Of a stretch of 64,000 nt of DNA, positions 3,643 to 61,410 are shown one piece after another. How positions within the stretch are numbered: the first letter of the stretch is position 1; each line of letters begins with the position of its first letter. The position numbers and the translations under genes were made by a program. The notes under the pieces were generated by a model. That model worked only from the letters and a program-made list of their open reading frames with translations. It searched no databases and had not been told where the DNA came from. The DNA lies in the NCBI RefSeq assembly GCF_016026235.1, contig NZ_CP065613.1. One strand, given 5' to 3'. This stretch comes from Escherichia coli. GTDB taxonomy: Bacteria; Pseudomonadota; Gammaproteobacteria; Enterobacterales; Enterobacteriaceae.

Positions 3643-3676
3643 TTTTGGAAAGCCCGGTATGCGTCTGCATCCGGGC
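3643..3676 (+). terminator. Rho-independent terminator of feoABC
   Basis: GC stem AAAGCCCGG...CCGGGCTTT followed by TTTTTT directly after the feoC stop. Confidence 0.7.
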
Positions 3677-3827
3677 TTTTTTGCGTGCGGCTTTCCATAA
3701 AAATGCAACTCTTGCAGCACGGCGTAAGTTCCTTTGAAAGCATCTCGCAGGGATGAAAACTCGCTAATACACAGGTGTGAAGTGGCGCGTAGAGTCGCGG
3801 CATTCAAACAACAGGTGAAGGAACGCC

Positions 3828-4706: not shown

Positions 4707-4734
4707 ATTTCTGTCTCGCCATTTCAAAAGTTGC

Positions 4735-5568
<834 letters not shown>

Positions 5569-5569
5569 A

Positions 5570-6226
<657 letters not shown>

Positions 6227-6284
6227 AGCCTCGATGATGGGCGTATTATAACCAACTAAAATAGTCAACTATTAGGCCATTACT

Positions 6285-6860: not shown

Positions 6861-6918
<58 letters not shown>

Positions 6919-7220
6919 GTTGAACATGTGCCAGACGTTGGCGCAGCATTGCTTTGGCAAATCCCTCCCTTCGTTTCTCCGCGATAATATGACCAACCTC
7001 TCATAATTTAAATTTACCCCGCTCTGGTGATTCTCAAACGCCAGATGTTACCCGTATCATTCACATGGGTACCAAACATACTCCTGACATCTGACTACAA
7101 TAATTAGTTTTAGTGGGTATCAGTCGTGGTGCCGCAATATCTCTGTTCCCGATTGGGATAATTAGAGTTTGTCGTCAGAAAATTGACGTTACCCATAACA
7201 AATGAAAGGCCAGGTAAATC

Positions 7221-8537: not shown

Positions 8538-8550
8538 TAACACTGACTGC

Positions 8551-8571
8551 CGGATGCATCGCATCCGGCAT
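8551..8571. terminator. Perfect palindrome GCCGGATGCATCGCATCCGGC between convergent gntT and malQ (REP-like bidirectional terminator)
   Basis: Read directly from sequence; lies between the two convergent stop codons. Confidence 0.55.
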
Positions 8572-8581
8572 CAACCGCACT

Positions 8582-10666
8582 CTACTTCTTCTTCGCTGCA
8601 GCTCTGCGCCGTCTGTCCAAATCCTTCAGCAACTTGTTCACGCCATCATCGGCAAACATCGACTCAAGCGTTGCGGAAAGCTTGCGTCGCCAGTTTTTAT
8701 ACTGGTAACTGGTGCCAGGAATATTCACCGGTTCGGCCATATCCAGCCAGTCTTCCGGCTGTAGTCCTAACAGAGCACTGTTACTGTCGGCAATGTAGCG
8801 CTGCAAACCACGGTTCAGCGTCGGCGTCATCGACATCAACGATGCCTTATGCCCGGCACGTTTTGGCAGACAACCATATTTATGCAGTGCATCCAGCAGC
8901 CCTTGCTTCGCCAGTTCGCGATCCTGATACAGACCGCGCAGTACCACTTCATCCGGATACAGCCCCAGGGTTTTGCCCAGCGTTAGATCCCCGCTCTCCC
9001 AGTAACCGCGTAGCGTAGGCAGGTCATGTGTCGCCGCAACCGCCATCGACTGCTCCGGATACGCTTTCGGTGCACGGAACGTCTTCTCGTGGTCGTTTTC
9101 GAAATAGAGCACTTTGTAGGAGTACACACCGCTGCTGCGCAGCTTACCGACAATCTCTACCGGTACGGTACCGAGATCTTCACCAATCACCATACAGCGA
9201 TGACGTTTACTTTCGAGTGCCAGAATCGAGAGCAGATCATCCACCGGATAGTGAACATACGCGCCCTGATCTGCCGTCTCGCCATACGGTATCCACCACA
9301 AACGCAGCATCGACATCACATGGTCAATTCGTAATGCGCCGCAGTTTTGCATATTGGCACGCAACAGCTCGATAAACGGTTCATAGGCACGCGCGGTGAT
9401 GATATGCGGGTCCATTGGCGGTAATCCCCAGTTCTGCCCCAACGGGCCGAGGATATCCGGCGGCGCGCCAACCGACGCTTTCAGGCAATATAGTTCACGG
9501 TCACACCAGGTTTCCGCCCCACCTTCCGCTACGCCAACCGCCAGATCACGATACAAGCCAATCGGCATTTCATAGCCCTGGCTTATCTCCCAGCAGGCGG
9601 CAAACTGGCTGTAAGCCAGCCACTGCAACCAGAGATAAAAATCGACGTCATTACGATGTTCTTCGCAGAACTGACGCACTTCTGGTGAATCCACGTTCTG
9701 ATACATCTCTGGCCATGCAGGCCAGCCCCAGCGCATTTCGTCCTCTTTCACTTGCTGGGCATGTAGCGCATCAAAGGCTGCCTGCCAGAACAGGCTGTCG
9801 CCCTGCTCTGCAACAAACTGGCGAAACGCGGCCATCTGCTCATCATCACGTTGCGCGAAACCTTTCCACGCCATTCGTAATGCTGTCATTTTTAGGGCGG
9901 TAACCGTGGAGTAATCGACCCAGTCGGCATCGCGCGCCTGTTGCAGCGTCTGTTGCGTGGTCGGCAACTGCCACCAGGCCTGAGCCTCTTCGCTAAGATG
10001 GAAATCTTCGACGGCGTTAACGTCGATATAAATCACATTCAGCCAACGGCGAGAAGACGGGCTGTATGGGCTGGCACTCTCCGGATTTGCCGGATAGAGC
10101 GCATGAATCGGGTTCAGGCCGATGAACGCCCCGCCACGTTTTGCCACATCCACCAGCATCGCTTTGAGATCGCCAAAATCCCCAATACCCCAGTTTTTTT
10201 CCGATCGCAGCGTATAAAGCTGAACGCAGGCACCCCACAGCTTTTGTTTATTCAGCAACGCCTGCGGTTCGTAACAGCGTTTCGGGGCGACAATCACCCG
10301 GCAATGCGCGCGCTGGTCGTCCTGGGTGAGTGTCAGCGTGTGATAACCTTCCGGCAGCTTCGTCGGTAGATTGAACGCTTTGCCCCCCGTTACATGGCCT
10401 TTGTACTGTGTTCCTTCTTCGGTGGTCAGCAGCCAGCTATATTCGCCGCTGCCCTCCACCACCATCGGCATTTTTTTGCCGCTGGTATAAACCATGACAT
10501 TCGGGACTGGCGTTACCGCCACTTTCGTGGCGGTACTTTGATGCATCGCGTCAAGCAAACGCCGTTTGGTTTCGGCGCCAATCGACTGCGGTTTTCCGTG
10601 GGCATTAATGTAATTGGGGCTGATCCCCGCCGCCAGTGCGGCTTTGTCCAGACGTTTGCTTTCCAT
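8582..10666 (-). CDS. malQ: 4-alpha-glucanotransferase (amylomaltase)
   Basis: 694 aa, GH77 family; downstream of malP in the malPQ operon. Confidence 0.95.
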   Translation of the reverse strand: MESKRLDKAALAAGISPNYINAHGKPQSIGAETKRRLLDAMHQSTATKVAVTPVPNVMVYTSGKKMPMVVEGSGEYSWLLTTEEGTQYKGHVTGGKAFNLPTKLPEGYHTLTLTQDDQRAHCRVIVAPKRCYEPQALLNKQKLWGACVQLYTLRSEKNWGIGDFGDLKAMLVDVAKRGGAFIGLNPIHALYPANPESASPYSPSSRRWLNVIYIDVNAVEDFHLSEEAQAWWQLPTTQQTLQQARDADWVDYSTVTALKMTALRMAWKGFAQRDDEQMAAFRQFVAEQGDSLFWQAAFDALHAQQVKEDEMRWGWPAWPEMYQNVDSPEVRQFCEEHRNDVDFYLWLQWLAYSQFAACWEISQGYEMPIGLYRDLAVGVAEGGAETWCDRELYCLKASVGAPPDILGPLGQNWGLPPMDPHIITARAYEPFIELLRANMQNCGALRIDHVMSMLRLWWIPYGETADQGAYVHYPVDDLLSILALESKRHRCMVIGEDLGTVPVEIVGKLRSSGVYSYKVLYFENDHEKTFRAPKAYPEQSMAVAATHDLPTLRGYWESGDLTLGKTLGLYPDEVVLRGLYQDRELAKQGLLDALHKYGCLPKRAGHKASLMSMTPTLNRGLQRYIADSNSALLGLQPEDWLDMAEPVNIPGTSYQYKNWRRKLSATLESMFADDGVNKLLKDLDRRRRAAAKKK

Positions 10667-10675
10667 CGCGCTTCC

Positions 10676-16386
<5,711 letters not shown>

Positions 16387-24114: not shown

Positions 24115-24121
24115 GGATGAT

Positions 24122-24150
24122 GCCCGGTTGAAGTGCAACCGGGCTATTTG
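24122..24150 (+). terminator. glpD Rho-independent terminator
   Basis: GCCCGGTTG-aagtg-CAACCGGGC stem followed by TATTT. Confidence 0.6.
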
Positions 24151-24165
24151 GATTCCTTAGACTAT

Positions 24166-24771
24166 TCATTGTAAATAATTGAATAACGGCCCCTGAGCTA
24201 AAATCGCCAAACTTAAGCACGTTACCCAATCGCCCCACTTCTTCCTCTGGTTTCTATTTTTTCTGCACCAATGGCAATAATATCCCAATGCAAAACCAAG
24301 CTGTGCACTAATCGGGCCGACAAAATCAGTCCAAGGCTGCGGCCAAAAAGGGGAAAAATTCAGGGGAGGCCAGACAAACGTCAGAAAGAAATTTCGGATA
24401 TTTTCCAGCAACGCTGATTTCTCTGGAGAAATATAAAGAATGAAATTCGAGAGAATTAACCAGAAATAGACCGGCGAAAAGACCAGCCAGCAATGCAGTC
24501 TGTTTTTTAATTCAGGAGGCGTTCTGCGGGAGAATTGCCAACCGATGCCAGCCATTACACTGAAAAAAAGTGCATATTCAACCATTAACTCAAGTTGTAA
24601 TTCCTGAAGAGAAATACGCACAACCAGGAGCGGAAAGGAGAATATTATTTCTGCCAGAAAAGTTAACGTGAATATAAGTACGGCTAAGACAATAACCGTC
24701 GGCCATACCAATAATGGCACGATAACAAAACCGAGAATTACAGGGGGAATATAAAGCCGGAATTTAATCAT
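24166..24771 (-). CDS. Small polytopic membrane protein (about 5 TM helices), unknown function; 4th gene of the accessory operon
   Basis: 201-aa ORF, strongly hydrophobic segments; start 2 nt after the upstream gene's stop. Confidence 0.6.
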   Translation of the reverse strand: MIKFRLYIPPVILGFVIVPLLVWPTVIVLAVLIFTLTFLAEIIFSFPLLVVRISLQELQLELMVEYALFFSVMAGIGWQFSRRTPPELKNRLHCWLVFSPVYFWLILSNFILYISPEKSALLENIRNFFLTFVWPPLNFSPFWPQPWTDFVGPISAQLGFALGYYCHWCRKNRNQRKKWGDWVTCLSLAILAQGPLFNYLQ

Positions 24772-24773
24772 TT

Positions 24774-25541
24774 TTATTTTCCTGGTGATTCGGATGATGC
24801 GTCATACATCGCGCATAAACACTCATCAATTATCCAGTCATCTTCCCAGACCTGATATTCTGTCATTGGTTCGGGCTGTTTTAGCGGGTTCTCAATCGCT
24901 TGCCGCGCTCTTTCTTTCAGTAAAGGATGATTATTTCTAGCCCAGGCATTGATTTGGGTGGTAATGACGTTATCGATATCGTCCTGGTTATCTCTGATAT
25001 AATCCTCACAATATCTGTTCAATAAACAGGCAAGAGAAACGGTCGACCAAAAGCCGGGAACTGAATTAATGGCATCCAGCAATGGCGCAAGAGCGATATC
25101 GGCACGGAAAAACATTTCCAGCATATACTGTAATTCGACAGCTTCATCGCCGGATACCCAATCAGTCATATACTGGCAGGCAAATCGCTGTAAAATTGCC
25201 CGTTCATCCGCACGCCAGTTTTCTTTGTTGGCAAGGTTGATACGGCGCAGAGAAAAAACTACGTGAATATTGTCAAAATGCCCCTGTGCAACAAATTCCA
25301 GTAAACGCGGCAGAAAATAGCGGACCTCATCGCTATTTTGCGGATCAGGCCCTGGGCTACTATTCCAGGCATTGATTAAGGAATACGGGATCGCTCGTAA
25401 CGATGTACTCCGTAATGCCTTTTGTTCCTGCTGACTCAGGCAATATTCACAACAAACCACAAATTTCTGCGGCACCCGATAACGACGAAAGGTGTGATAA
25501 ATCTGCTCAATTAATGCCTGCATGGCGGGGCTGGGTTGCAT
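24774..25541 (-). CDS. Hypothetical soluble Cys-containing protein, unknown function; 3rd gene of the accessory operon
   Basis: 255-aa ORF; no family recognised by eye; CCEYC near the N-terminus and CLC near the C-terminus. Confidence 0.55.
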   Translation of the reverse strand: MQPSPAMQALIEQIYHTFRRYRVPQKFVVCCEYCLSQQEQKALRSTSLRAIPYSLINAWNSSPGPDPQNSDEVRYFLPRLLEFVAQGHFDNIHVVFSLRRINLANKENWRADERAILQRFACQYMTDWVSGDEAVELQYMLEMFFRADIALAPLLDAINSVPGFWSTVSLACLLNRYCEDYIRDNQDDIDNVITTQINAWARNNHPLLKERARQAIENPLKQPEPMTEYQVWEDDWIIDECLCAMYDASSESPGK

Positions 25542-25543
25542 AG

Positions 25544-26254
25544 TTACCCCCTCGCCCGCTGATCGCGTGTAAACGGTTGATAGACAAAACGAGCATTCGC
25601 CGCGTTCAGGCGAATAAGGGCGCTACGCGAAAGGGAAAAGCTGGGGCGAATGCAACTATTGCAGTCTCGACAGCTTTCCTCTGCGCAATTTTCCACTGAG
25701 TAATGACGCGTGTAGAGTTTCAGTTCGGCCTGCTTATCGCGAAATCCGCGTAAACTGTTATTGTTATGAAATTTCCAGGCATCTTTAAAGACCTGAAAGA
25801 TATAGACATCCTCAATCCAGGAGTCACATTTTTTAAGCGGGCGCTTTGCTATTATCACCCGCTCATCCGGATTTAGCATCGCCGTAAATTGTACGGTGAC
25901 GTCATTTGTCGTGTTCAGGTCACATTGAACATCTGGTACATCACTGATATAGGGGTCAAATCCAAAATCAGCACCACAGGCACAAAGACGGCTAATGGTG
26001 GCGGTATCGAGGGAAAATCCCGGCCATACCTTGCTGGAGGTTAAGCCAATATTTAATGTGACATCATATCGAAGCAATCCCTCAAGACCGTCAGCACCGA
26101 CGAACTTTTCCCCTTCATCCAGGGCCTGGTTAATAAGTTGCTGAACAATGCCTTCATCCCAGTATGCCGATTTGCAGTTGGCAATCGTAATATCCACGCC
26201 TGTGAAGGGATCAGTACCGGCAAGGCTTGCAAATAATGTATTAACTAATTCCAT
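25544..26254 (-). CDS. Hypothetical soluble protein with C-terminal Cys cluster CxxxxCxxCxxC; 2nd gene of the accessory operon
   Basis: 236-aa ORF; CAEESCRDCNSC motif; no family recognised by eye. Confidence 0.55.
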   Translation of the reverse strand: MELVNTLFASLAGTDPFTGVDITIANCKSAYWDEGIVQQLINQALDEGEKFVGADGLEGLLRYDVTLNIGLTSSKVWPGFSLDTATISRLCACGADFGFDPYISDVPDVQCDLNTTNDVTVQFTAMLNPDERVIIAKRPLKKCDSWIEDVYIFQVFKDAWKFHNNNSLRGFRDKQAELKLYTRHYSVENCAEESCRDCNSCIRPSFSLSRSALIRLNAANARFVYQPFTRDQRARG

Positions 26255-26269
26255 TTTTATTATCCAGCT

Positions 26270-27787
26270 TTAAGGTAGCGTCTTATACATCGGGACATAA
26301 CCTACATCTTCCACCAAACTCTGTCCCTGCGGCGTTAAAAACCACTCCAACAATTTTTGTGTCTCTGACGTCGTATTTTCCCGCGTTACCATAAAGGCAT
26401 CGACGATATAGGGATATTTGCCGTTGCGAATGTTTTCGGCAGTCGGTGCAATACCGTTAATCGCTAGCAGTTTTATATTTTTATCGGCGTTCATTTGTGT
26501 TGCGTAATAACGGAAGGTGTAACCTATTGCGTTGTTTGTATTACGGTATTCGGCAACGACTTTAATCATTCCCTCCATCATACTTGCCACTTCTGTTTCC
26601 TGCGGCGAGATCATGCGGACATTTTTCATGACCTGGGATTGCATCACCGTCTGGCTGCCAGAGTCTTCCGGGCGCTGCCAGGTCTGGATCTCCTGATCGT
26701 TACCGCCAACAGTACGCCAGTTGGTAATTGCACCACTGAAAATGTCACGCACCTGTTGTTCAGTCAGGGAATTAACCGGATTATCCGCATTGACGATGAA
26801 AACGAATGCTTCACGGGCAAAGGGGGTGTACAGCAAAGTGACACCAGATTCCTTTGCACGTTTTTTTTGCCCACCGGAAGGTTGCGCCACAAAAATAATA
26901 TCAGCATCGCCCTTAACGATTTTGTTATATGCTTCTGGCGTACGAGAGTTTTCCAGATAATCCCAAACGTGAAAATCCTCTGGTATTACACTTAATGCAT
27001 AAAATGCAGAAGCATAAATTGGGTACGCAGCCGTGGCGCCATCGATTCGCGGCCAGTTTTGCCTAAACTGAATTTGCGGTTTGCCACGCAGTGGCGTCAG
27101 TCGATTATTGAGTTTATCGGGTCGCCAGGCCCAGATATCAATATTTTCGCGTACACCGACACCAGGATTTTGCTGCTTATATAAATGGGCCTGATACCCA
27201 GCGACAATACCAAGTAAGAGAAGTAGAAACAGGAGTAAGTTACGGCAACGTAGTCCGGACGTGCCGGATAAAGGATATCTGGTCGGCCAGGCGTATCCCA
27301 GCGAAAAACTGATATGCGCCCCAACGGGAATAATGACCATCCACCAGTACTCACCACCCACTAATGAGACTAAAAAAACGCCCAACCAGGGAAGCATAAG
27401 GTTTGCCAACCAACCAGCTCCCATCTGGCGAAATTGATAATCTGCCAGATGTAGCGTGATTATCCAGCCAACCAGGGTTAATAGCGCGGGTAAGAGAAAA
27501 AAGCATTGCCGCCAGACGGCTATTTCTCTGTTTTCTGGCGCGCTATCACCGGCCCACACGCGACCAGAGAAAAATATTATTACCGCCCCCAGCGTCAGCA
27601 TAAAGACGTTGAGTAGAAGATAAATTGTTGGCGTGATAAGGATATTACAAACTTCAATAATACCGGTAAGCCCGACACCCAGCATGGCAACAACCGCTGC
27701 CAAAAATTGCGCCAGTATGGGGATGCCGAAAAAAGTCATTATCAGCGAGGTCAAAATCCATTTTCTATTTGGCATCATTCTGTCCAT
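26270..27787 (-). CDS. Membrane-anchored PstS-like (phosphate-binding-protein fold) protein; 1st gene of the accessory operon
   Basis: 505-aa ORF; N-terminal about 200 aa with 5-6 hydrophobic helices, C-terminal about 280 aa with PstS-like segments (GATAAYPIY, AIGYTFRYYA, TNWRTVGG); AGGAAG Shine-Dalgarno upstream. Confidence 0.65.
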   Translation of the reverse strand: MDRMMPNRKWILTSLIMTFFGIPILAQFLAAVVAMLGVGLTGIIEVCNILITPTIYLLLNVFMLTLGAVIIFFSGRVWAGDSAPENREIAVWRQCFFLLPALLTLVGWIITLHLADYQFRQMGAGWLANLMLPWLGVFLVSLVGGEYWWMVIIPVGAHISFSLGYAWPTRYPLSGTSGLRCRNLLLFLLLLLGIVAGYQAHLYKQQNPGVGVRENIDIWAWRPDKLNNRLTPLRGKPQIQFRQNWPRIDGATAAYPIYASAFYALSVIPEDFHVWDYLENSRTPEAYNKIVKGDADIIFVAQPSGGQKKRAKESGVTLLYTPFAREAFVFIVNADNPVNSLTEQQVRDIFSGAITNWRTVGGNDQEIQTWQRPEDSGSQTVMQSQVMKNVRMISPQETEVASMMEGMIKVVAEYRNTNNAIGYTFRYYATQMNADKNIKLLAINGIAPTAENIRNGKYPYIVDAFMVTRENTTSETQKLLEWFLTPQGQSLVEDVGYVPMYKTLP

Positions 27788-27882: not shown

Positions 27883-29308
27883 TAATGCCAGTCAGTTAAG
27901 CAACTGACTGGCTCTTTTTCGGGGCTGTGGGGTATTTCCAGGGCCTCTCCTTTACCACTCTCGGGAAGGCCCTTCCCCTTCTCGTCGGTAATTTCACAAG
28001 TTGTCCCATACTTGCAAGATCGCGCATCAGCTCCGGTATACGTCCCGGTGAAGCGCCCTGCAATGTCATCAGCATTCTCATCACCATTCCGCATGATTCT
28101 GAGAAACTCAGTTGATTCGGCCAGTAACCTTTCAGATGTTCCGCCATTTTAATCATCTGATATCTCACCAGATTATAAGCCAGTAAGACACCCCACAGCT
28201 CTTGCTCCACAAGCTCCGGCTTTTTACTTCTCAGCGTCAGCCTGCTCAGTTGCATCGTCTGTTTTATCTCCCTGTATCCCAGTTCGATTTCCCAGCGATG
28301 ACTGTACAGATCCGCCATTTCTCCTCCGGGGAAGCGCATGGCGTCCGTCATCGACGTCAGCAGATGGCAGACTTTTCCTTTGCGCGTCACGGTCAGCAGG
28401 CGGGCTGTCACTTCATTTCCCAGTCCCGGCCACTTTTTTCGTGCCTGCGGGCTGGTTTTCAGCTTCACCAGATGATCGCCTTTACCCAGTTTTCTGAGCT
28501 CTTCATATTGCGCTCCCTTTCTGAGAGGTATCATCCAGTGGCGGTGTTCTCCCGCCAGGCTCCAGGCATTTAACAGTCCCAGTGAGTAATAACCTTTATC
28601 CATTAACGTCAGAGTGTTATCGCCGGTTTGTTCTATAAGTTGCTCAGCAAGCTCATTTTCGCTGTTCTTCATCGTGCCGAAGGCTGCAGCCGTCAGCAGA
28701 TGGCTGGTCAGTTCCATCTGGCAGACCATTTTGACCTGCGGGTAGAGCGCCGGGTTCCCGGCATGTGTCTGGCGGGGGAAGGCTGCATCGTTCTCTGGTG
28801 TATCCGGTGTGCGCCAGAACACACCATCGATGGCCAGCAGGGTCAGGCCGCACCAGTGCGGATGCGGCGTGGCGTTATGCCAGAGCTGCGCTGTTTTCGT
28901 GAACACGCGGCGGACAGCCTCACTTCCCAGGCGCTGGCGGGCCTGAATAACGGCACTGGGGGCAACGAAGGGGCGATTGCCCGGCAGCATGATGTCCAGG
29001 CGATTCACAATCTGGTGAAGAGGTTCTTTACGCTCAAGCGCCATGCCAACAATACACCAGACCATCATTTCGAGGGGAAGACGGCGCTTGCGTAGCGTTA
29101 CAGTACCTGATTCGGCAAGGCAACGAGAGATGAGTTCGGGGTCGAGGTAATCCCCCAGAGAAGTCAGTGGGTTACGCAGAGAATCGTAACGGGATACCAG
29201 ATCAAGAGCCTGTCCAATGTGCATAAAAAAATCCGGAAACAAGTGAGCGTTTCCGGATTCTTACACAGCCACTGGATCGGTCAACTGATCCTTAACTGAT
29301 CGGCATTA
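27883..29308 (-). mobile_element. IS4 insertion sequence (1426 bp) with imperfect terminal inverted repeats
   Basis: Termini TAATGCCAGTCAGTTAAG (27883) and the reverse complement of TAATGCCGATCAGTTAAGG (29308); single IS4-family DDE transposase ORF inside; flanked by a 12-bp direct repeat. Confidence 0.9.
27896..29224 (-). CDS. insG: IS4 transposase (DDE)
   Basis: ORF 27896..29242; 442 aa from [14 protein letters not shown], matching the IS4 transposase as I recall it. Confidence 0.85.
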
Positions 29309-40277: not shown

Positions 40278-40871
40278 ATGAATGAAATCATTTCTGCAGC
40301 AGTTTTATTGATCCTGATTATGGATCCGCTCGGAAACCTACCTATTTTCATGTCCGTACTGAAACATACTGAACCGAAAAGACGGCGGGCAATCATGGTG
40401 CGAGAGTTGCTTATTGCTCTCCTGGTGATGCTGGTGTTCCTGTTTGCGGGTGAGAAAATTCTGGCATTTCTCAGCCTACGAGCAGAAACCGTCTCCATTT
40501 CTGGCGGCATCATTCTGTTTCTAATTGCCATTAAGATGATTTTCCCCAGCGCTTCAGGAAATAGCAGCGGGCTTCCGGCAGGTGAAGAGCCATTTATCGT
40601 GCCGCTGGCAATTCCGCTGGTCGCCGGGCCAACTATTCTCGCCACGCTGATGTTGTTGTCTCATCAGTACCCGAATCAGATGGGACATCTGGTGATTGCT
40701 CTGCTGCTGGCCTGGGGCGGCACCTTTATCATCCTGCTACAGTCTTCGCTATTTTTACGTCTGCTGGGCGAGAAAGGGGTGAACGCACTTGAACGCCTGA
40801 TGGGATTGATTCTGGTGATGATGGCAACCCAGATGTTCCTCGACGGCATTCGAATGTGGATGAAGGGGTAA
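40278..40871 (+). CDS. yhgN: MarC-family inner membrane protein YhgN
   Basis: 197-aa polytopic membrane protein; synteny. Confidence 0.9.
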   Translation: MNEIISAAVLLILIMDPLGNLPIFMSVLKHTEPKRRRAIMVRELLIALLVMLVFLFAGEKILAFLSLRAETVSISGGIILFLIAIKMIFPSASGNSSGLPAGEEPFIVPLAIPLVAGPTILATLMLLSHQYPNQMGHLVIALLLAWGGTFIILLQSSLFLRLLGEKGVNALERLMGLILVMMATQMFLDGIRMWMKG

Positions 40872-40879
40872 GGTTCAAA

Positions 40880-40915
40880 CAGGTGCTGCACACAACCAGA
40901 CGCGGCACCTGTTTT
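40880..40915. terminator. Bidirectional Rho-independent terminator between yhgN and the DprA-like gene
   Basis: CAGGTGC...GCACCTG stem followed by TTTT on the plus strand; reverse complement gives a stem plus TTTG. Confidence 0.55.
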
Positions 40916-40916
40916 A

Positions 40917-42119
40917 TTACCTGAACTGATAATGACCTTCGCCCAATCGGATAACCCTTCCCTCTTCTTCTGCGCGGTTCAGCCACACACTAATTTGTTC
41001 GATGGTTAAACCAGTACAAGACGCCAGCCTTTCAATACTTATCGATTCCTTTGCAAGGATCGCCAGTTCCGCCACAAAGAGTTGATAAAAATCGACAGGC
41101 GTATACGCGGGCATTACTGCGTAATTTGCGTCATCTTCATGCAGCGAAAACAGTTCTGGTTGAGCGTTACGGAGTGCTCTGTCATACATCAGCCCAGGAA
41201 CGTCTGGCAGTCTGATCGTCACATTCTCAGCCTGTTCAGCACTCCATGACGCCCCATTTTCTACTAATCGTGAATTGGCTGATTGCATATCCTGATTTGG
41301 TTTAACCTGCACAGGCAGCCACTGATGTTTTAATGCCTCCATCGCCCCGGTTATCGTTCCACCGGTCATTCCCGCACGTACAACCATTGCGCTTTCAGCA
41401 AGGCAATAAATATATTTATTTCGCGCCATCGCATTGCCGACGGTGAAACGTACCTCTGGGTAAAACGGCGAAATCAACACCAGGTTGCCTGCTATAAGCC
41501 CTTCACGCCATTTCACTAACGTACTCGTTTTTAACAAGCTATCAGCTAATACGCCAACGGCTGTTCCCCCGGTCTCCAGTGCCGACGCCATTGCACATTC
41601 ATCAATACCTCGCGCACCACCAGAGATAACGCAAATCCCCTGTTGGGCCAGTTTCGCGGCCAGTTGTTGGGTATAGCGCAAATCGTCAGTCGGAGCATCT
41701 CGCGAGCCAACAATCGCCATACCTTCCGCTTGCAGTAATGCTTTATTCCCGCAGCCAAATAAAACGGGAGGTGCATCCGTTCGCAATCGGTTTTTCAAGC
41801 GAACGGGATAATCAGCATCTCCGCGGGTTAAGATCCATAAACCGGCGCGTTGCCACTTATCTACCGCCAACGCCAGACTATGACCACGCGCCAGCAAGCC
41901 AAGAATACGCTCCTGAGAAATACGCGGATCGCTCCAGCCTGTAAGTTTCTCTTGCGGTTGCGGCACCAGAAGCTCGGCGGGACTGATACGTTGGTGCTTC
42001 AGCCATAATGCAAACTTCCCCCATTCACTATTACTAAGAGGTTTATACTCACTCGCCGCCGCGCGAGAAAAATCGCTGGTTAGCAGGAGAGTTGCTTGTG
42101 CATTGGCTGAAAGATTCAT
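40917..42119 (-). CDS. DprA/Smf-like (SLOG-fold) protein with C-terminal winged-helix-like tail; 2nd gene of the helicase island
   Basis: ORF 40917..42212; start placed at MNLSANAQ (42119), whose ATG overlaps the upstream stop (TGATG); DprA-type motifs GSRDAPTDDLRY and ISGGARGIDE. Confidence 0.7.
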   Translation of the reverse strand: MNLSANAQATLLLTSDFSRAAASEYKPLSNSEWGKFALWLKHQRISPAELLVPQPQEKLTGWSDPRISQERILGLLARGHSLALAVDKWQRAGLWILTRGDADYPVRLKNRLRTDAPPVLFGCGNKALLQAEGMAIVGSRDAPTDDLRYTQQLAAKLAQQGICVISGGARGIDECAMASALETGGTAVGVLADSLLKTSTLVKWREGLIAGNLVLISPFYPEVRFTVGNAMARNKYIYCLAESAMVVRAGMTGGTITGAMEALKHQWLPVQVKPNQDMQSANSRLVENGASWSAEQAENVTIRLPDVPGLMYDRALRNAQPELFSLHEDDANYAVMPAYTPVDFYQLFVAELAILAKESISIERLASCTGLTIEQISVWLNRAEEEGRVIRLGEGHYQFR

Positions 42120-44215
42120 CAATTTTTTACCGAGGTAGAAGCAAGGGCAAGAGGATAAACCGTCGGGCAACCTGCCTGGCGTAACAGTGCTGTCAGAACT
42201 GTCAGCGTCCATGCAGAATCCACGATATCGTCAACCAGCAACGCCGGACCAGGCATCAAAGGAGGGGTAATCACAAACGCCCCATCGAGATTTTGACACT
42301 GGTGGAAACGGTTTTGCTGCATTTTCTGCGGTGGATTGTCCACGACTTTTTCAATGGCATCAATAAAAGGTAAGCCAAGTTTCGCCGCCAGTCGCCGGGC
42401 AAAATCAGGAACCAGGTCGAGGTGCTTTAATGAAGGAACGCAGCATACCCAGGTTGGTTCAGGATGCGGATTCCAGCGTTGGCGAACCATTTCCGCACAT
42501 GCCTCCACCAGTTCATCACTGAATCGCCCCGTTTTTTTCTCCTGTGCTACCTGCTTTCCCCACCCGGAATCTCCCCAACGAGAAAGGATTCGCCCCGTAG
42601 ATCCTTGTAAACTCGCAGGCAAGTTCCCTTTAAATCCGTATTGCGTAAAAGCCCCAGCTGCCACCTGTTTATTGAGATTTAATGGCAGGTCAGCGTGTTT
42701 AATAAATAAGTTTGCCGCATGGAGTAAGCCGCTATCAATGTCGGGCGACAACAACGGATACTGAAGACAACTGCTACATTTACCACAATGTTCGGCACCT
42801 GGCTCATCGAGTGCGCGGCGCAGAAATTGCATTTTGCACTCCTTGGTCGTGATATAGCTTTCAACGTCTGCCAGCTCACTTTTTCTCTGATTCATCAAAT
42901 GGTTAATTCGTTCATGGTCAGGAGAAAAACTGACAATTGTTCTGCGCCATAATTTCTCGGTATACACCACAGGCGATGGATTTTCAGCTACCAATAATTT
43001 CAGTGCTTTTTCTATTTGCCCGTAACGGAGATTCGTCCGTTGTTCAATGCCTCGTAAGGTAAGACCGTCATTCACGCTAAGTACGTTGAGTATTTCATGA
43101 ATTTGCGCCTCCGCAGGAAAGGCGCTTTCACGGAAGAATTTATGAATAGCACGGTCTTCACTGCCGCAAAGCAGTATGCCAACAGCAGAATCGATACCGC
43201 GACCGGCACGCCCCACCTGTTGGTAGTAACCAACTATCGAACCTGGCATCTGGTAATGAATAACAAACCCCAAATCCGGTTTGTCAAAGCCCATTCCCAG
43301 CGCAGTTGTCGCAACCAGCACTTTAATTTTATTTGCCAGCAACGCCTGCTCCAGATATTCCCTGGCAGTATTAGAATCTTCCGCGCCTTCACAAGTCACG
43401 CCGCTGTAGTAAGCAAATGCACTGATACCATTTTTCCTTAACCACTCGGCGACAAGTTCGGCATCGCGAGTAGTCAGGGTATAAACAATTCCCGATTTGG
43501 AAAACTGAGGGATAACCGTTGCTAACCATGCCAGACGGGATGACTGTTCACCTAAGACTAAGGCATCAAGCGCCAAACTTTCGCGAGCCAGCGTTCCACG
43601 CTGAATCACAATGTCACCCAATTGCTGACGGATATCCTCAACGACACGGTTATTCGCTGTCGCGGTTGTACCCAGAACAGGGGTATTCGCAGGTAGTTGG
43701 CGCAAAATATCTAATATACGTCGGTAATCCGGGCGAAAATCGTGGCCCCAATCAGAGATGCAGTGCGCCTCGTCGACCACAAGCAAGCCAATACGATCGG
43801 CTATAGGATATAAAACCGTTTCGATAAAGTCCTGGTTTGCCAAACGTTCCGGGGAAACCAGCAAGCAATCGACCTCACCTTGCAGCAACTTATCGCTAAT
43901 GCGCTGCCATTCTTCTCTGTTTGTAGAATTCAACGTTTCAGCCGTAATACCTAACCGTTCAGCGGCGGCAACCTGGTTACGCATCAGGGCAAGCAAAGGA
44001 GAGATGATAATTGTCAGGCCAGCGCCGCGATCGCGGAAGATTTTACTGGCGATGAAGTACACAGCACTTTTCCCCCAGCCAGTGCGTTGGACAACCAGCA
44101 GTTTTCGCCGTTGGTTCACCACCGCGTCTATGGCTTCCCATTGCCCTTCCCTGAAAGTAGCGGTGGTATTTCCTAACATCCGCTGTAAAAGCAATTCAGC
44201 TGCGTGCTTTTCCAT
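42119..44215 (-). CDS. RecQ-family SF2 helicase fused to a C-terminal ComF-type phosphoribosyltransferase-like domain; 1st gene of the helicase island
   Basis: 698 aa; Walker A TGWGKS, DEAH box VVDEAHCISDWGHDFRPDY, motif VI QQVGRAGRG, Cys cluster CGKCSSC, C-terminal PRTase-like LLVDDIVDSAWTL; AGGAG Shine-Dalgarno 5 nt upstream of the ATG. Confidence 0.7.
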   Translation of the reverse strand: MEKHAAELLLQRMLGNTTATFREGQWEAIDAVVNQRRKLLVVQRTGWGKSAVYFIASKIFRDRGAGLTIIISPLLALMRNQVAAAERLGITAETLNSTNREEWQRISDKLLQGEVDCLLVSPERLANQDFIETVLYPIADRIGLLVVDEAHCISDWGHDFRPDYRRILDILRQLPANTPVLGTTATANNRVVEDIRQQLGDIVIQRGTLARESLALDALVLGEQSSRLAWLATVIPQFSKSGIVYTLTTRDAELVAEWLRKNGISAFAYYSGVTCEGAEDSNTAREYLEQALLANKIKVLVATTALGMGFDKPDLGFVIHYQMPGSIVGYYQQVGRAGRGIDSAVGILLCGSEDRAIHKFFRESAFPAEAQIHEILNVLSVNDGLTLRGIEQRTNLRYGQIEKALKLLVAENPSPVVYTEKLWRRTIVSFSPDHERINHLMNQRKSELADVESYITTKECKMQFLRRALDEPGAEHCGKCSSCLQYPLLSPDIDSGLLHAANLFIKHADLPLNLNKQVAAGAFTQYGFKGNLPASLQGSTGRILSRWGDSGWGKQVAQEKKTGRFSDELVEACAEMVRQRWNPHPEPTWVCCVPSLKHLDLVPDFARRLAAKLGLPFIDAIEKVVDNPPQKMQQNRFHQCQNLDGAFVITPPLMPGPALLVDDIVDSAWTLTVLTALLRQAGCPTVYPLALASTSVKN

Positions 44216-44319
44216 CTTTATCTCCTGCGATCTTTAGGCAGTGATTAGAACGGATTATTTGCAGGTAAATTTGCGAGAGAGATCAAAAAGATGAAGAGAG
44301 GAGAAAAGAGAAATGAATT

Positions 44320-44343
44320 ACTGCGAGCAAGCTCGCAGTAATT
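44320..44343 (-). terminator. gntU terminator hairpin (TACTGCGAGC-A-GCTCGCAGTA)
   Basis: Perfect 10-bp inverted repeat immediately downstream of the gntU stop on the minus strand. Confidence 0.55.
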
Positions 44344-44354
44344 TGTCGCAGTAA

Positions 44355-45695
44355 TTAACTCAACAGCTGGAACGCAATCATCCCCACGATGGCACCAACA
44401 GTGCCGAGGATGGTTTCCATCATGGTCCAGGTTTTCAGCGTTTCGGCTTCGGTCGCGCCGGTAAATTTACCGAACAACCAGAAACCGGCGTCGTTAACGT
44501 GGCTGACAACAATCGAACCACCGGCGATACAAATCGACAGCGCCGCCATTTGCGCACCGGAATAGTTCAGTTGTTCAATGACCGGCATCACCAGCCCCAC
44601 CGCCGTTAAACAGGCAACGGTGGCAGACCCCTGAATGATGCGCACTGCAGCTGCCAGCACGAAGCAGGTGATGGCTATCGGCAGGCCCATGCCAGTTAAC
44701 GCTTCGCCCAGTGCCGGACCTACGCCAGAGTCAACCAGCACCTGTTTGAACACGCCGCCTGCACCAATCACCAGCAGAATGATCCCCGCCGGTTGCAGCG
44801 CGTGACCGCAAATCTCCATCACTTTGTCTTTTGGCATGCCCTGACGCATTGCCAGGCCATAAATCGCTACCAGACAAGCAACCAGAATCGCGGTAAACGG
44901 ATGACCAATAAACTCGAACCATTCGTAAGCGGTAGAGCCTTCTGGCACAAAACGCGCGGCAATGGTTTTCAGCCCCACCAGCACCAGCGGCAACAGGATC
45001 AGCGACAGGCTGAATCCGAAAGATGGCATTTTGCCTTCGCCGAGATGCGGTTCGCTGATGTCGTCAGGAATATGCAACTCCACGTAGCGGCTGATGAAAT
45101 TACCCCACAGCGGCCCGGCAATAATCATTCCCGGAATTGCCGCACACAGGCCAATCAGGATCATCCAGCCAAAATCGGCGTTCATCTGCGATGCGAGGAG
45201 CATTGGCGCTGGCCCAGGCACCAGGAACGCAGCCGCGGCCGCCACGCCTGCGAATAATGGGATTACCAGCTTCACCAGGTTCGTACCGGTGTGGCGCGCC
45301 ATTGAGAAAGCAACGCTAATCAGCAGAACAATCGCCACTTCAAAGAACAGCGGTAGCGCACAGACCAGCCCCGCAAGGCCGATGGCATAATGCGCGCGGC
45401 TGTGACCGAAGGATTTGAGCATTTTGACGGCAATCTGATCGACTGCGCCGGTTTCATGTAAGATCTTGCCAAACATAGCTCCCAGGGCGACAACCACCGC
45501 CAGGAAGCCGAGGGTGCCTCCCATCCCTTTTTCCATCGTCGCTGCGATTTTATCGAGCGGCATACCGGAAAAAAGGCCAGCCCCCATGGACACCACCATC
45601 AAAGCCAGGAAAGCGTGCATACGCGCCTTCATGACTAAAAACAGCAGCAGTAAAACAGACCCTACTGCTGTTAAAACAAGCGTTAATGTAGTCAC
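44355..45695 (-). CDS. gntU: Low-affinity gluconate transporter GntU
   Basis: 446-aa GntP-family permease; paralog of the gntT product. Confidence 0.95.
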   Translation of the reverse strand: MTTLTLVLTAVGSVLLLLFLVMKARMHAFLALMVVSMGAGLFSGMPLDKIAATMEKGMGGTLGFLAVVVALGAMFGKILHETGAVDQIAVKMLKSFGHSRAHYAIGLAGLVCALPLFFEVAIVLLISVAFSMARHTGTNLVKLVIPLFAGVAAAAAFLVPGPAPMLLASQMNADFGWMILIGLCAAIPGMIIAGPLWGNFISRYVELHIPDDISEPHLGEGKMPSFGFSLSLILLPLVLVGLKTIAARFVPEGSTAYEWFEFIGHPFTAILVACLVAIYGLAMRQGMPKDKVMEICGHALQPAGIILLVIGAGGVFKQVLVDSGVGPALGEALTGMGLPIAITCFVLAAAVRIIQGSATVACLTAVGLVMPVIEQLNYSGAQMAALSICIAGGSIVVSHVNDAGFWLFGKFTGATEAETLKTWTMMETILGTVGAIVGMIAFQLLS

Positions 45696-49555: not shown

Positions 49556-49649
49556 AAAAAAAAAGCCAGCACCCGGCTGGCTAAGTAATACTGGAAGCAA
49601 TGTGAGCAATGTCGTGCTTTCAGGTTCTCCGCGAGGGTCTTCCTGATCA
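49556..49649 (-). ncRNA. ryhB: RyhB iron-responsive small RNA
   Basis: Minus strand reads GTGATCAGGAAGACCCTCGCGGAGAACCTGAAAGCACGACATTGCTCACATTGCTTCCAGTATTACTTAGCCAGCCGGGTGCTGGCTTTTTTTTT, matching RyhB as I recall it apart from one base near the 5' end; terminator hairpin plus U-tract. Confidence 0.9.
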
Positions 49650-51675: not shown

Positions 51676-52166
51676 TGACTAAAACCCAAATAAATAAATT
51701 AATAAAAATGATGAATGATTTAGACTATCCATTTGAAGCACCGCTCAAGGAATCATTTATTGAAAGTATAATCCAAATAGAATTTAATTCTAATTCAACT
51801 AATTGCCTGGAGAAGTTATGTAATGAAGTTAGTATTCTTTTTAAGAATCAACCTGATTATCTTACTTTTTTAAGAGCAATGGATGGATTCGAAGTTAATG
51901 GATTACGATTATTTAGCCTCTCGATTCCAGAACCTTCAGTTAAAAACCTTTTTGCCGTAAATGAATTTTATAGAAATAATGATGATTTCATAAACCCTGA
52001 TCTACAAGAACGGTTAGTGATCGGGGATGATAGCATTTCAATATTTACTTATGACATTAAAAGTAACTTTTTTGAAATTAGAGATAATATTGGCACAGAA
52101 AATATATTCAGTTCGTTTAGTGATTTCTCTTCATTCTTAAACGAAATCATGGACAGTTGTTCATAA
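51672..52166 (+). CDS. yrhA: Putative cognate immunity protein YrhA, apparently full length
   Basis: 164-aa ORF whose ATG overlaps the yhhZ stop (ATGA); AT-rich. Confidence 0.65.
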   Translation: MMTKTQINKLIKMMNDLDYPFEAPLKESFIESIIQIEFNSNSTNCLEKLCNEVSILFKNQPDYLTFLRAMDGFEVNGLRLFSLSIPEPSVKNLFAVNEFYRNNDDFINPDLQERLVIGDDSISIFTYDIKSNFFEIRDNIGTENIFSSFSDFSSFLNEIMDSCS

Positions 52167-60330: not shown

Positions 60331-60545
60331 CGGTACGGGTGAGGGAAAATGGGAGATGGGGCACGGATATCCCGAGAATGCACTGAAAAGAGGCGATTAA
60401 CGGCCAGCTAATCGCCAGAACTCCTTACCATGAAGAGCAAAAATGGCAGCAAATTCTGCGTCCAGTTTTGCTGCCCGATGAGAGCTACATTTTTCAATTT
60501 TAACAAAAGATTGCCGCGACACTGGTCTAACGGCAAAGAAGATTT

Positions 60546-61292
60546 TCATTGCACCACACTCTGCTTCAGCCGTTCATTGGCGGTCTTAATCCATTCCCGG
60601 TGGTGTTTTCTATAATGAGGTCTTGAGCGTTTAGCCGTATCAACTACAGCAACATACTGCTCGTTGGCTTCACGTAACCGACTCATTTTCGCCAACATTT
60701 CCGCATAGTAAATACGCGCCTGCGGGCCGGGGTAATAAGAAATCAATACTTCAAACTCGCTTTCCGCATCAGCGTATTTTTCTTGTGCGGCTAACGTTCT
60801 GGCAAATAACAAATGCCCGTCTGCCGACTGAAAATCAGGGTTATAACGCATCACATCTTCCAGCGTCTGCTGACAGGCGGCGAACTCCTGAATAGCAAAC
60901 TGTGCCTGCGCCAGGCTTAGCATCATTGCCGCTTCATGGGCGAATATCCCGCTTAACGCCTGCTGATAATGGGGAACAGCTTCGTGATAACGCCCCAGAC
61001 GCGCCAGTTCATTAGCCAACGCATAATGGTTTTGATTCGTCTCGGCAATCGCCAGTTCTTCGGTTAATTTGCGCAGGTGGCGCTCAGGGTTGAGTTTGTC
61101 CTGCAGGCGCATCAGCAAAGTATGCCCGTGACGGTCAGCGCCCGTTTCAGGCAGCATCACTATGACGAAATACGCCACGCAGCCAATCACCGGAAAACAG
61201 AAAATGATAAAAATCCAGTACCGCTCTTGTCCGGTACGGTAAGCGTGAATACAGCAAAGCAGTTCAAGCATGACAACAACGGCATAATGCAT
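60546..61292 (-). CDS. Hypothetical protein: N-terminal two-helix membrane anchor followed by TPR-like helical repeats
   Basis: 248-aa ORF; hydrophobic N-terminus (VVVMLELLCC...IFIIFCFPVIGCVAYFVIVML), then helical repeat region (YHEAVPHYQQAL, YADAESEFEVLISYY, AEMLAKMS); typical E. coli codon usage. Confidence 0.5.
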   Translation of the reverse strand: MHYAVVVMLELLCCIHAYRTGQERYWIFIIFCFPVIGCVAYFVIVMLPETGADRHGHTLLMRLQDKLNPERHLRKLTEELAIAETNQNHYALANELARLGRYHEAVPHYQQALSGIFAHEAAMMLSLAQAQFAIQEFAACQQTLEDVMRYNPDFQSADGHLLFARTLAAQEKYADAESEFEVLISYYPGPQARIYYAEMLAKMSRLREANEQYVAVVDTAKRSRPHYRKHHREWIKTANERLKQSVVQ

Positions 61293-61410
61293 GGGAGGGA
61301 ACCTTTCCGTGGCAAATAAGTGGTCTGGTTTTAATCCTCCCGGTCAGTTGAAACAAGTCTGTATACGGACGAATACCCCGGCAGAACTTAGCTGCTGGGT
61401 TATCGATAAT

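What the first reader, a model, noticed from the sequence alone, without database searches (positions are those of the whole stretch)
40917..44215. Two-gene island: RecQ helicase fused to a ComF-type PRTase-like domain, coupled to a DprA/Smf-like protein, between yhgN and gntU
Read from the sequence: the 698-aa protein has a complete RecQ-type helicase core (TGWGKS, DEAH box, QQVGRAGRG, CGKCSSC) and a C-terminal about 150-aa domain ending in LLVDDIVDSAWTL, the position of the PRPP-binding loop in ComF/PRTase proteins but with the usual TTG(S/A)T loop replaced by DSAWT. The downstream 400-aa protein has DprA/SLOG motifs (GSRDAPTDD, SGGARGIDE) and its ATG overlaps the helicase stop. The pair sits between the yhgN and gntU terminators, where I recall K-12 having only an intergenic spacer. 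Established knowledge: DprA, a ComF-type PRTase and a helicase cooperate in ssDNA processing during natural transformation, and DprA-PRTase gene pairs have been reported as antiphage systems. Inference: this is a fused variant of that logic, either a defence system or an ssDNA-processing module; I do not recognise this exact architecture as described. The housekeeping ComF homolog gntX lies in the same window, so this is an additional, divergent copy.
Basis: partly seen in the sequence, partly recalled or inferred. Interest (0 to 1): 0.85.

Follow-up and report, generated by a model that had tools for sequence, protein, structure and literature searches.

The report
Known PsyrTA (RqlHI) toxin–antitoxin pair
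The two genes are real and intact, but they are the already published E. coli RqlH–RqlI pair (also called the PsyrTA toxin–antitoxin/defence system), not a new architecture, and a near-identical copy of this exact locus has already been tested against phages with no protection seen.

Summary
A 698-aa RecQ-like helicase with a C-terminal PRTase domain (42119-44215, minus strand) overlaps by one base (TGATG) a 400-aa DprA-like protein (40917-42119). They lie in a 3483-bp segment that replaces the 56-bp yhgN-gntU spacer of K-12.

The claim of novelty is wrong. PADLOC matches both proteins end to end to PsyrT (E=0, 1063 bits) and PsyrA (E=2.6e-202). This is the rqlHI operon of ExPEC strain F11 (Russell & Mulvey 2015). 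Residue numbering is identical (DIVD663; RqlI 1-400). RqlH was toxic through its PRTase domain, and RqlI bound and neutralised it.

Millman et al. 2022 renamed the family PsyrTA and showed phage defence for a Bacillus homolog. Their construct SG127 is this same E. coli segment (PsyrT 98.5% identical over its first 399 residues, PsyrA 97.8%) and is scored "observed defense: x". A second study of an E. coli PsyrTA (strain NILS69) also saw no defence.

The site has two states: 1650 of 5426 complete E. coli genomes carry the pair and 3774 have the empty spacer. No mobile-element hallmarks flank it.

Verdict: already known. What remains open is the PRTase substrate and the natural role of the E. 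coli allele.

The parts
40872..44354 (-). Strain-specific 3483-bp segment that replaces the 56-bp yhgN-gntU spacer of K-12. It carries the rqlHI (psyrTA) operon.
   Evidence: Megablast of the window against K-12 and junction alignment. Millman construct SG127 (3485 bp) maps to window 44355..40871.
44216..44354 (-). 5' non-coding region of rqlH. It contains the gntU terminator hairpin (44316-44343) and about 100 nt that must hold the native promoter. An AGGAG ribosome-binding site lies 8 nt before the ATG.
   Evidence: No consensus sigma-70 site was found by the scan. Transcription of the operon was shown by RT-PCR in strain F11 (PMC4670107).
42119..44215 (-). rqlH / psyrT: 698-aa toxin, a RecQ-like SF2 helicase fused to a PRTase domain.
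   Evidence: PADLOC PsyrT E=0, 1062.7 bits, residues 3-697 against model 5-687/689. TIGR00614 recQ_fam 257.2 bits, above its cutoff of 219.8. The exact sequence was seen on 122 public contigs.
43145..44158 (-). Helicase core (residues about 20-357), with motif I TGWGKS, motif II DEAH and motif VI QQVGRAGRG.
   Evidence: Pfam DEAD 4.1e-25 and Helicase_C 9.5e-13. Motif positions.
42764..42889 (-). RecQ zinc-binding-like region (residues 443-484, including CGKCSSC).
   Evidence: Pfam RecQ_Zn_bind E=0.0031, a weak match.
42122..42691 (-). PRTase domain (residues about 509-698), the part responsible for toxicity in the F11 ortholog.
   Evidence: Pribosyltran matches 23 of 24 family members. AlphaFold2 model pLDDT 86.4. 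Foldseek top PDB hits are APRT, PurF and HGPRT, with ComF and ShosT also listed. Deleting residues 509-690 abolished toxicity (PMC4670107).
42203..42241 (-). PRPP-binding loop LLVDDIVDSAWTL (residues 659-671).
   Evidence: D663A and DIVD663EVME abolish toxicity in F11 RqlH.
40917..42119 (-). rqlI / psyrA: 400-aa DprA-like antitoxin, translationally coupled to rqlH by a TGATG overlap. An alternative in-frame start at 42212 gives the 431-aa form annotated by RefSeq.
   Evidence: PADLOC PsyrA 2.6e-202, residues 1-400 against model 1-397/398. RqlI is used as residues 1-400 in PMC4670107 and as 400 aa in Millman Table S2.
41244..41855 (-). DprA/SLOG Rossmann-type domain of RqlI (residues 89-292).
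   Evidence: Pfam DNA_processg_A 6.3e-51 and LDcluster4 9.4e-11. PDB DprA chains at about 2e-11 and ShosA 9vzo at 3.8e-7.
40877..40914 (.). 13-bp-stem hairpin between the convergent yhgN and rqlI genes, a likely bidirectional terminator.
   Evidence: Inverted repeat I7; sequence.

Best explanation
This is the chromosomal rqlHI operon of E. coli, a member of the PsyrTA toxin-antitoxin/defence family. RqlH (PsyrT) is a RecQ-like 3'-5' helicase fused to a PRTase domain. RqlI (PsyrA) is a DprA-like protein made from the same transcript by translational coupling.

Shown for the F11 ortholog: without RqlI, RqlH causes SOS induction, filamentation, mutagenesis and growth arrest. This toxicity needs the PRTase domain and its PRPP-loop aspartate D663. 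RqlI physically binds RqlH and neutralises it through its N-terminal and DprA regions.

Inferred: in the resting cell the RqlH-RqlI complex is inert. The complex is released or re-targeted by a perturbation. That could be RqlI being titrated by foreign ssDNA or replication intermediates, or RqlI being lost after host shut-off, as reported for the sister antitoxin ShosA. The PRTase then uses PRPP to disturb nucleotide or DNA metabolism, stops replication, and aborts the infection.

Defence has been shown only for a distant Bacillus homolog. For this E. coli allele no protected phage has been found, so I put the defence role in E. coli at only about 0.4-0.5. Identity as RqlHI/PsyrTA and toxin-antitoxin behaviour I put at 0.95 or higher.
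For: Full-length PADLOC matches to PsyrT and PsyrA. Domain architecture confirmed by NCBIfam, Pfam, family profile and fold search. Gene order and the 1-nt overlap match the family rule that rqlH lies upstream of rqlI, close or overlapping. Residue numbering is identical to F11 RqlH and RqlI: DIVD663, RqlI 1-400. Genetics and co-immunoprecipitation are in PMC4670107. Millman et al. equate PsyrTA with RqlHI and report defence for the Bacillus sp. FJAT-29814 system. The ShosTA mechanism papers supply the analogy: PRPP binding is needed for toxicity, the antitoxin binds ssDNA and RecA, and the antitoxin is unstable and triggered by T7 Gp0.7. The pair is variably present: 1650 of 5426 genomes.
Against: The same E. 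coli segment from STEC 1299 (PsyrT 98.5% identical over its first 399 residues, PsyrA 97.8%) gave no observed defence under its native promoter. PsyrTA of E. coli NILS69 gave no defence in the native host or in K-12 and caused a growth defect. The rqlHI double deletion had no detectable fitness cost. The PRTase substrate and product are unknown. ShosA does not bind ShosT whereas RqlI does bind RqlH, so the ShosTA analogy may not carry over. The segment sits alone between housekeeping genes, with no neighbouring defence genes or mobile-element hallmarks.
Confidence: 0.9

Rival explanations
1. A selfish or addictive chromosomal toxin-antitoxin module with no defence role in E. coli. It persists because losing rqlI alone is harmful, and it is inherited vertically or moved by flanking homologous recombination.
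For: Two independent negative phage tests of E. coli alleles. The rqlI deletion is attenuated only because of RqlH, and the double deletion is neutral. The toxin gene is sometimes inactivated: frameshifted in FDAARGOS_943 and interrupted by IS1 in NZ_OZ040267.1, as in Shigella sonnei 53G. There is no defence-island context.
Against: A Bacillus homolog does defend. 1642 of 1650 carrier genomes keep at least 80% of the segment, at 95-100% identity, which suggests purifying selection on both genes. The phage panels used were small.
Confidence: 0.3
2. A DNA-maintenance or DNA-modification pair, as in the Russell & Mulvey model. The RqlH PRTase modifies a nucleotide in DNA that has been unwound by its helicase, and RqlI helps resolve the adduct, giving a beneficial but unidentified genome function.
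For: Model in Fig 10 of PMC4670107. The helicase is physically fused to the PRTase. RqlI is DprA-like, so it probably binds ssDNA. The phenotypes are all DNA-damage phenotypes.
Against: No phenotype for the double deletion. Seventy percent of E. coli genomes lack the pair. No DNA adduct has been shown. The related ShosT acts on purine metabolism rather than on DNA.
Confidence: 0.1
3. An accessory ssDNA-uptake or natural-transformation module, a fused ComFA/ComFC analogue plus a second DprA.
For: Domain analogy only: a ComF-like PRTase fold (7p0h at rank 18) and DprA homology.
Against: The authors detected no transformation in their ExPEC isolates. RqlI falls below the DprA equivalog cutoff (101.9 against 191.15 bits). 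The pair behaves as toxin and antitoxin. The canonical gntX/comF homolog is present separately.
Confidence: 0.03
4. A previously undescribed fused architecture.
For: Against. The family is in PADLOC and is listed for DefenseFinder's RefSeq database. This locus was published in 2015 and cloned in 2022.
Confidence: 0.01

Closest known systems
RqlH-RqlI of ExPEC E. coli F11 (Russell & Mulvey 2015), the same as the PsyrTA family (Sberro 2013; Millman 2022)
   Same: Same species and same two-gene operon. Same protein lengths (698 and 400 aa) and residue numbering (DIVD663). Same domain order, with full-length HMM matches.
   Different: Only allelic differences. The window's proteins are about 98% identical to the STEC 1299 allele, and the segment is 95.8% identical in nucleotides to that of a urine isolate.
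PsyrTA of Bacillus sp. FJAT-29814, the experimentally defending homolog
   Same: Same architecture and gene order.
   Different: PsyrT is only 53% identical over its first 400 or so residues, and PsyrA only 32%. That system scored positive for defence, and the E. coli allele did not.
ShosTA (DprA-like ShosA plus PRTase ShosT)
   Same: A PRTase toxin paired with a DprA-like antitoxin. Toxicity depends on PRPP binding, and the phenotype is filamentation and DNA damage. RqlI hits the ShosA models at 3.9e-27 and chain 9vzo.
   Different: ShosT has no helicase. The gene order is the reverse (shosA is listed first). ShosA does not bind ShosT, whereas RqlI binds RqlH. The RqlH PRTase resembles ShosT only at fold level (8zvc, E=9e-3).
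Mycobacterium smegmatis RqlH (solo RecQ-like helicase with PRTase)
   Same: The founding member of the helicase-PRTase clade. Its PRTase domain is dispensable for ATPase and helicase activity (as cited).
   Different: It has no RqlI partner, and almost no Gram-positive carrier of RqlH has one.
ComFA/ComFC plus DprA of naturally competent bacteria; E. coli GntX/YhgH
   Same: A helicase, a PRTase-fold protein and DprA acting together on ssDNA. The ComF fold is among the PRTase fold hits.
   Different: Those are separate proteins that support DNA uptake, and they are not toxic. GntX in this window has the canonical VDDVVTTGST loop. There is no evidence that rqlHI acts in transformation.
DpdF helicase of the Dpd (7-deazaguanine DNA modification) system
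   Same: The RecQ-like helicase core gives strong partial hits (6.8e-93).
   Different: Most DpdF hits cover the helicase half only (two small DpdF sub-models match the C-terminal part). NCBIfam DpdF scores 152.8 against a cutoff of 550. No other dpd genes lie nearby.

Membership tests
PsyrTA / RqlHI | Toxin matches the PsyrT profile over its full length. | tested here: met
   PDLC03928, E=0, 1062.7 bits, residues 3-697 against model 5-687/689.
PsyrTA / RqlHI | Antitoxin matches the PsyrA profile over its full length. | tested here: met
   PDLC03927, E=2.6e-202, residues 1-400 against model 1-397/398.
PsyrTA / RqlHI | Toxin has an N-terminal RecQ-like SF2 helicase and a C-terminal PRTase domain. 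| tested here: met
   recQ_fam above cutoff. DEAD and Helicase_C. Pribosyltran in 23 of 24 family members. PRTase fold by AlphaFold2 and Foldseek.
PsyrTA / RqlHI | Antitoxin has a DprA-like (DNA_processg_A / SLOG) domain. | tested here: met
   PF02481 at 6.3e-51. DprA structures at about 2e-11.
PsyrTA / RqlHI | Toxin gene lies immediately upstream of the antitoxin gene on the same strand, close or overlapping. | tested here: met
   1-nt TGATG overlap. The family rule is stated in PMC4670107.
PsyrTA / RqlHI | Toxin alone is toxic, and co-expressed antitoxin neutralises it. | not testable with these tools
   Shown for the F11 ortholog. Not tested for this allele.
PsyrTA / RqlHI as an anti-phage defence system | Confers resistance to phage. 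| not testable with these tools
   In the literature, the Bacillus homolog is positive, while the E. coli STEC 1299 allele (about 98% identical) and the NILS69 allele are negative.
ShosTA | Stand-alone PRTase toxin (ShosT, no helicase) with a ShosA antitoxin. | tested here: not met
   The toxin carries a helicase and no ShosT model is among the 25 best hits shown. ShosA models match only residues 85-266 at 3.9e-27, far below PsyrA. ShosT is similar only at fold level.
Canonical RecQ (TIGR01389 / PRK11057 equivalogs) | Score above the equivalog cutoff. | tested here: not met
   300.5 bits against a cutoff of 640.2, and 229.7 against 1015. Only the subfamily model passes.
Canonical DprA/Smf (TIGR00732 / PRK10736) | Score above the equivalog cutoff. 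| tested here: not met
   101.9 bits against 191.15, and 79.5 against 495. The RefSeq product name 'DNA-processing protein DprA' is therefore more specific than the evidence allows.
ComF/ComFC (GntX) | ComF-type PRTase with the canonical VDDVxTTGxT loop, as a stand-alone protein. | tested here: not met
   The loop is DSAWT and the domain is fused to a helicase. ComF 7p0h is only rank 18 among generic PRTase fold hits. The true GntX is elsewhere in the window.
Mobile genomic island | Integrase or transposase, flanking direct or inverted repeats, a tRNA target, or atypical composition. | tested here: not met
   No flanking repeats. GC 0.46-0.54, similar to the flanks. Only two genes. No near-identical copy on plasmids or phages.

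The most novel reading that the evidence does not exclude
The chromosomal E. coli allele may not be a phage-defence system at all. Its helicase-tethered PRTase could act directly on DNA or on nucleobases in unwound DNA, for example by phosphoribosylation, with RqlI reversing or channelling the product. That would be an unrecognised DNA-modification or repair chemistry, or a system aimed at something other than lytic phages, such as plasmids, satellites or incoming ssDNA. The two negative phage screens and the unknown PRTase substrate leave this open.
Probability: 0.1. Interest if true: 0.6.

Novelty: already known. Interest (0 to 1): 0.12.

Why it matters
As a discovery it does not matter, because the locus, its architecture, its toxin-antitoxin behaviour and its family name are all published. 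What this check adds:

- The site is strictly two-state across 5426 complete E. coli genomes: 30% carry rqlHI, 70% have the empty spacer, and nothing else occupies it.
- The segment has no mobility hallmarks and appears to move, if it moves at all, by recombination of its flanks.

The questions that remain open are biochemical: the PRTase substrate, the trigger, and why the E. coli allele shows no defence. They cannot be advanced from sequence alone.

Tried and rejected
- Single-sequence searches for the PRTase domain were only marginal (Pfam E=0.0087; PDB phmmer E about 0.13). I did not rely on them and used a 24-sequence family alignment, a family-wide Pfam scan, an AlphaFold2 model and Foldseek instead. 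The family profile against PDB sequences reached only PRPP synthetases, at 4e-4, over the PRPP loop.
- I looked for mobile-element signatures (direct and inverted repeats; composition; copies on plasmids or phages). I found none and rejected the 'mobile island' reading.
- I looked for a sigma-70 promoter upstream of rqlH. The consensus scan found none in 40700-44500, so the promoter remains unmapped.
- I first took the E. fergusonii copy at the same site as evidence that the pair is ancestral. I rejected that after finding a mosaic identity profile: left flank 87%, segment 96.6%, gnt flank 95.3%, which points to import from E. coli.
- My first junction alignment read the wrong locus record from the file. 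I redid it.
- Sberro et al. 2013 (PMC3644417) is not held in the library, so the original PsyrTA description is cited only through later papers.
- A paper search for PsyrTA together with FJAT-29814 found nothing. The information came from the supplementary table of the Millman preprint instead.
- The Rfam scan found no RNA family in the segment.
Full report
**1. Observation**

The window has two co-directional minus-strand ORFs exactly where the finding says. One runs 42119..44215 and encodes 698 aa. The other ends at 40917; its longest form starts at 42212 (431 aa) and its internal ATG at 42119 gives 400 aa.

All quoted motifs are present: TGWGKS at 45, DEAH at 148, QQVGRAGRG at 332, CGKCSSC at 477 and LLVDDIVDSAWTL at 659 in the helicase, and GSRDAPTDD at 138 and SGGARGIDE at 166 in the second protein. 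The 400-aa start overlaps the helicase stop by one base, TGATG.

K-12 MG1655 has a 56-bp spacer between yhgN and gntU. In the window that spacer is wholly replaced by 3483 bp (40872-44354), and similarity to K-12 ends exactly at the two stop codons. Hairpins at 40877-40914 and 44316-44343 act as terminators at the two edges. The housekeeping ComF homolog gntX/yhgH is at 5579-6226 with the canonical VDDVVTTGST loop.

**2. What the proteins are**

PADLOC-DB matches the 698-aa protein to PsyrT (E=0, 1062.7 bits, residues 3-697 on model positions 5-687 of 689). It matches the 400-aa protein to PsyrA (E=2.6e-202, residues 1-400 on 1-397 of 398).

NCBIfam places the helicase in the RecQ family subfamily (257.2 bits, cutoff 219.8) but below the RecQ equivalog cutoffs. 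The second protein falls well below the DprA equivalog cutoff, 101.9 against 191.15 bits.

Pfam gives DEAD, Helicase_C, a weak RecQ_Zn_bind and a weak Pribosyltran for the helicase. For the partner it gives DNA_processg_A at 6.3e-51 plus a SLOG family.

Because the PRTase call was weak for the single sequence, I gathered homologs of residues 496-698. There were 570 hits, most already carrying PF00156. I aligned 23 of them with the query.
- Pribosyltran then matched 23 of 24 members at E<=0.001, best 3.6e-9.
- An AlphaFold2 model of the domain had mean pLDDT 86.4.
- Foldseek against the PDB returned type-I PRTases at the top (APRT, PurF, HGPRT). H. pylori ComF was at rank 18 and ShosT at rank 24.

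The PRPP loop of the family is VDD-x-x-D-S-x-W-T, with D, S, W and T invariant. Most members have DSGWT, and the E. coli protein has DSAWT.

**3. The locus is already published**

Russell & Mulvey (PLoS Pathog 2015, PMC4670107) characterised this operon in ExPEC strain F11 as rqlH-rqlI.
- RqlH is a RecQ-like helicase with a C-terminal PRTase domain (residues 509-690).
- Expressed without RqlI, it induces SOS, filamentation, mutagenesis and growth arrest.
- Deleting the PRTase domain, or the mutations D663A or DIVD663EVME, abolish this.
- RqlI (residues 1-400) co-precipitates with RqlH and neutralises it through its N-terminal and DprA regions.
- The two genes are co-transcribed.

In the window's protein DIVD is at residue 663 and the partner is 400 aa long, so the numbering is identical. 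The paper also reports that rqlH always lies upstream of rqlI, usually close or overlapping, and that Gram-positive bacteria mostly carry RqlH alone. It already discusses the ComF/DprA transformation analogy, reports no detectable transformation, and reports no phenotype for the double deletion.

Millman et al. [quoted passage not shown] They note the DprA-like antitoxin and the PRTase toxin. Rousset et al. 2022 make the same link for ShosTA. The exact protein sequences are in public databases, with the helicase seen on 122 contigs.

**4. The proposed experiment has been done on this locus**

Table S2 of the Millman preprint has a column headed 'observed defense'. [quoted passage not shown] Construct SG128 reads 'PsyrTA, v, Bacillus sp. 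FJAT-29814'.

The SG127 insert begins at the position equivalent to window 44355 and, at 3485 bp, would end at 40871. That is the whole strain-specific segment with its native upstream region. Its first 399 nt are 392/399 identical to the window. Its PsyrT is 98.5% identical over the first 399 residues, which is all the table shows. Its PsyrA is 97.8% identical over all 400 residues. The defending Bacillus proteins are only 53% and 32% identical to the window's proteins.

A later preprint deleted PsyrTA in E. coli NILS69 and expressed it in K-12. It saw no protective activity and a growth defect.

So membership of the PsyrTA family is secure, but a defence function for the E. coli allele has not been shown.

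**5. Distribution and mobility**

- The segment is in 1650 of 5426 complete E. coli genomes. It is always chromosomal, the median is one copy per genome, and identity is 95-100%.
- The K-12-type contiguous junction is in 3774 genomes.
- The two counts sum to all 5424 genomes that matched, so the site has two states and no other cargo.
- Carriers include O157:H7, ST131 (O25b:H4) and IAI39. This agrees with the reported enrichment in phylogroup E2.

There are no flanking repeats, integrase or compositional anomaly, and no close copy on plasmids or phages. One E. coli plasmid, NZ_OX030731.1, carries a divergent pair at 66.8% nucleotide identity.

Against a distant E. coli genome the segment is 95.8% identical and its flanks 98.1% and 97.4%. 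That fits long residence with somewhat faster divergence. An E. fergusonii genome has the pair at the same site. There, however, the segment (96.6%) and the gnt flank (95.3%) are E. coli-like while the left flank is 87.0%. This suggests import by homologous recombination rather than common ancestry.

**6. Mechanism**

Shown, for orthologs: helicase activity of the clade (M. smegmatis, as cited), PRTase-dependent genotoxicity, and physical neutralisation by RqlI.

Inferred: the RqlH-RqlI complex is inert until RqlI is titrated or lost. The PRTase then uses PRPP to disturb nucleotide or DNA metabolism and stops replication, aborting the infection. The inference draws on ShosTA, where PRPP binding is needed for toxicity. 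ShosT disrupts purine metabolism. ShosA binds ssDNA and RecA and is intrinsically unstable, and T7 Gp0.7 triggers the system through host shut-off. One caveat is that ShosA does not bind ShosT, unlike RqlI and RqlH.

Rivals are a purely addictive toxin-antitoxin module, the DNA-modification and resolution model of Russell & Mulvey, and a transformation module. The last has essentially no support.

**7. Verdict**

The finding is a correct reading of the sequence and a correct domain-level interpretation, but it rediscovers a named, experimentally studied system. Novelty: already known. Interest is low. What remains of interest is the unresolved PRTase chemistry and the lack of any known target for the E. 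coli allele.

Noticed in passing
window 24115-27552: A second K-12-absent segment lies between glpD and yzgL/glgP. It holds four tightly packed minus-strand ORFs: a 201-aa membrane protein, a 255-aa protein, a 236-aa protein, and a 505-aa protein with N-terminal transmembrane segments and a PstS-family phosphate-binding domain (TIGR02136 9e-36, below cutoff). None has a PADLOC hit. It is probably an operon of unknown function.
   Followed up: partly
window 27883-29308: An IS4-family insertion sequence absent from K-12 at this position. Its 448-aa transposase (27896-29242) matches NF033592 at 1.5e-90. It sits right beside the four-gene segment.
   Followed up: partly
window 60370-61410: A 1041-bp K-12-absent stretch between ugpB and livF. 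It encodes a 248-aa protein (60546-61292, minus strand) with an N-terminal hydrophobic region and only weak TPR-type hits.
   Followed up: partly
window 52053-52061: The IS1E that interrupts yrhA in K-12 (3583428-3584195) is absent here. The window aligns straight across the K-12 insertion site.
   Followed up: no
L005 (E. fergusonii GCA_041950025.1) 1-12097: This E. fergusonii genome has rqlHI at the same gntU-yhgN site, but with a mosaic identity profile relative to the window: glgB-asd-yhgN flank 87.0%, rqlHI segment 96.6%, gntUKR flank 95.3%. This suggests that an E. coli gnt-rqlHI block was imported by homologous recombination.
   Followed up: partly
window 42119-44215 and its counterparts in other genomes: The toxin gene is occasionally inactivated in carriers. 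It is frameshifted in the best-matching genome FDAARGOS_943 and split by IS1 in NZ_OZ040267.1. NZ_OZ501598.1 retains only 54% of the segment, with the remnant annotated 'ComF family protein'. Russell & Mulvey note a similar interruption in Shigella sonnei 53G.
   Followed up: no
window 40917-42212: There is an annotation discrepancy. RefSeq/PGAP calls the second gene as 431 aa, overlapping rqlH by 94 nt, and names it 'DNA-processing protein DprA'. The PsyrA profile, IMG and the experimental paper all use the 400-aa form, and the protein scores below the DprA equivalog cutoff.
   Followed up: yes
plasmid NZ_OX030731.1 37412-40265 (hit H28): A 100-kb E. coli plasmid carries a divergent RecQ-family helicase plus DprA-like pair, 66.8% nucleotide identity over 58% of the segment. 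PsyrTA-type pairs therefore also occur on plasmids in E. coli, although the chromosomal allele does not.
   Followed up: no
window 49557-49621: The RyhB sRNA (Rfam RF00057, 83.1 bits) is the only Rfam family found in the 64-kb window. It is ordinary and in its expected place next to yhhX/yhhY.
   Followed up: yes
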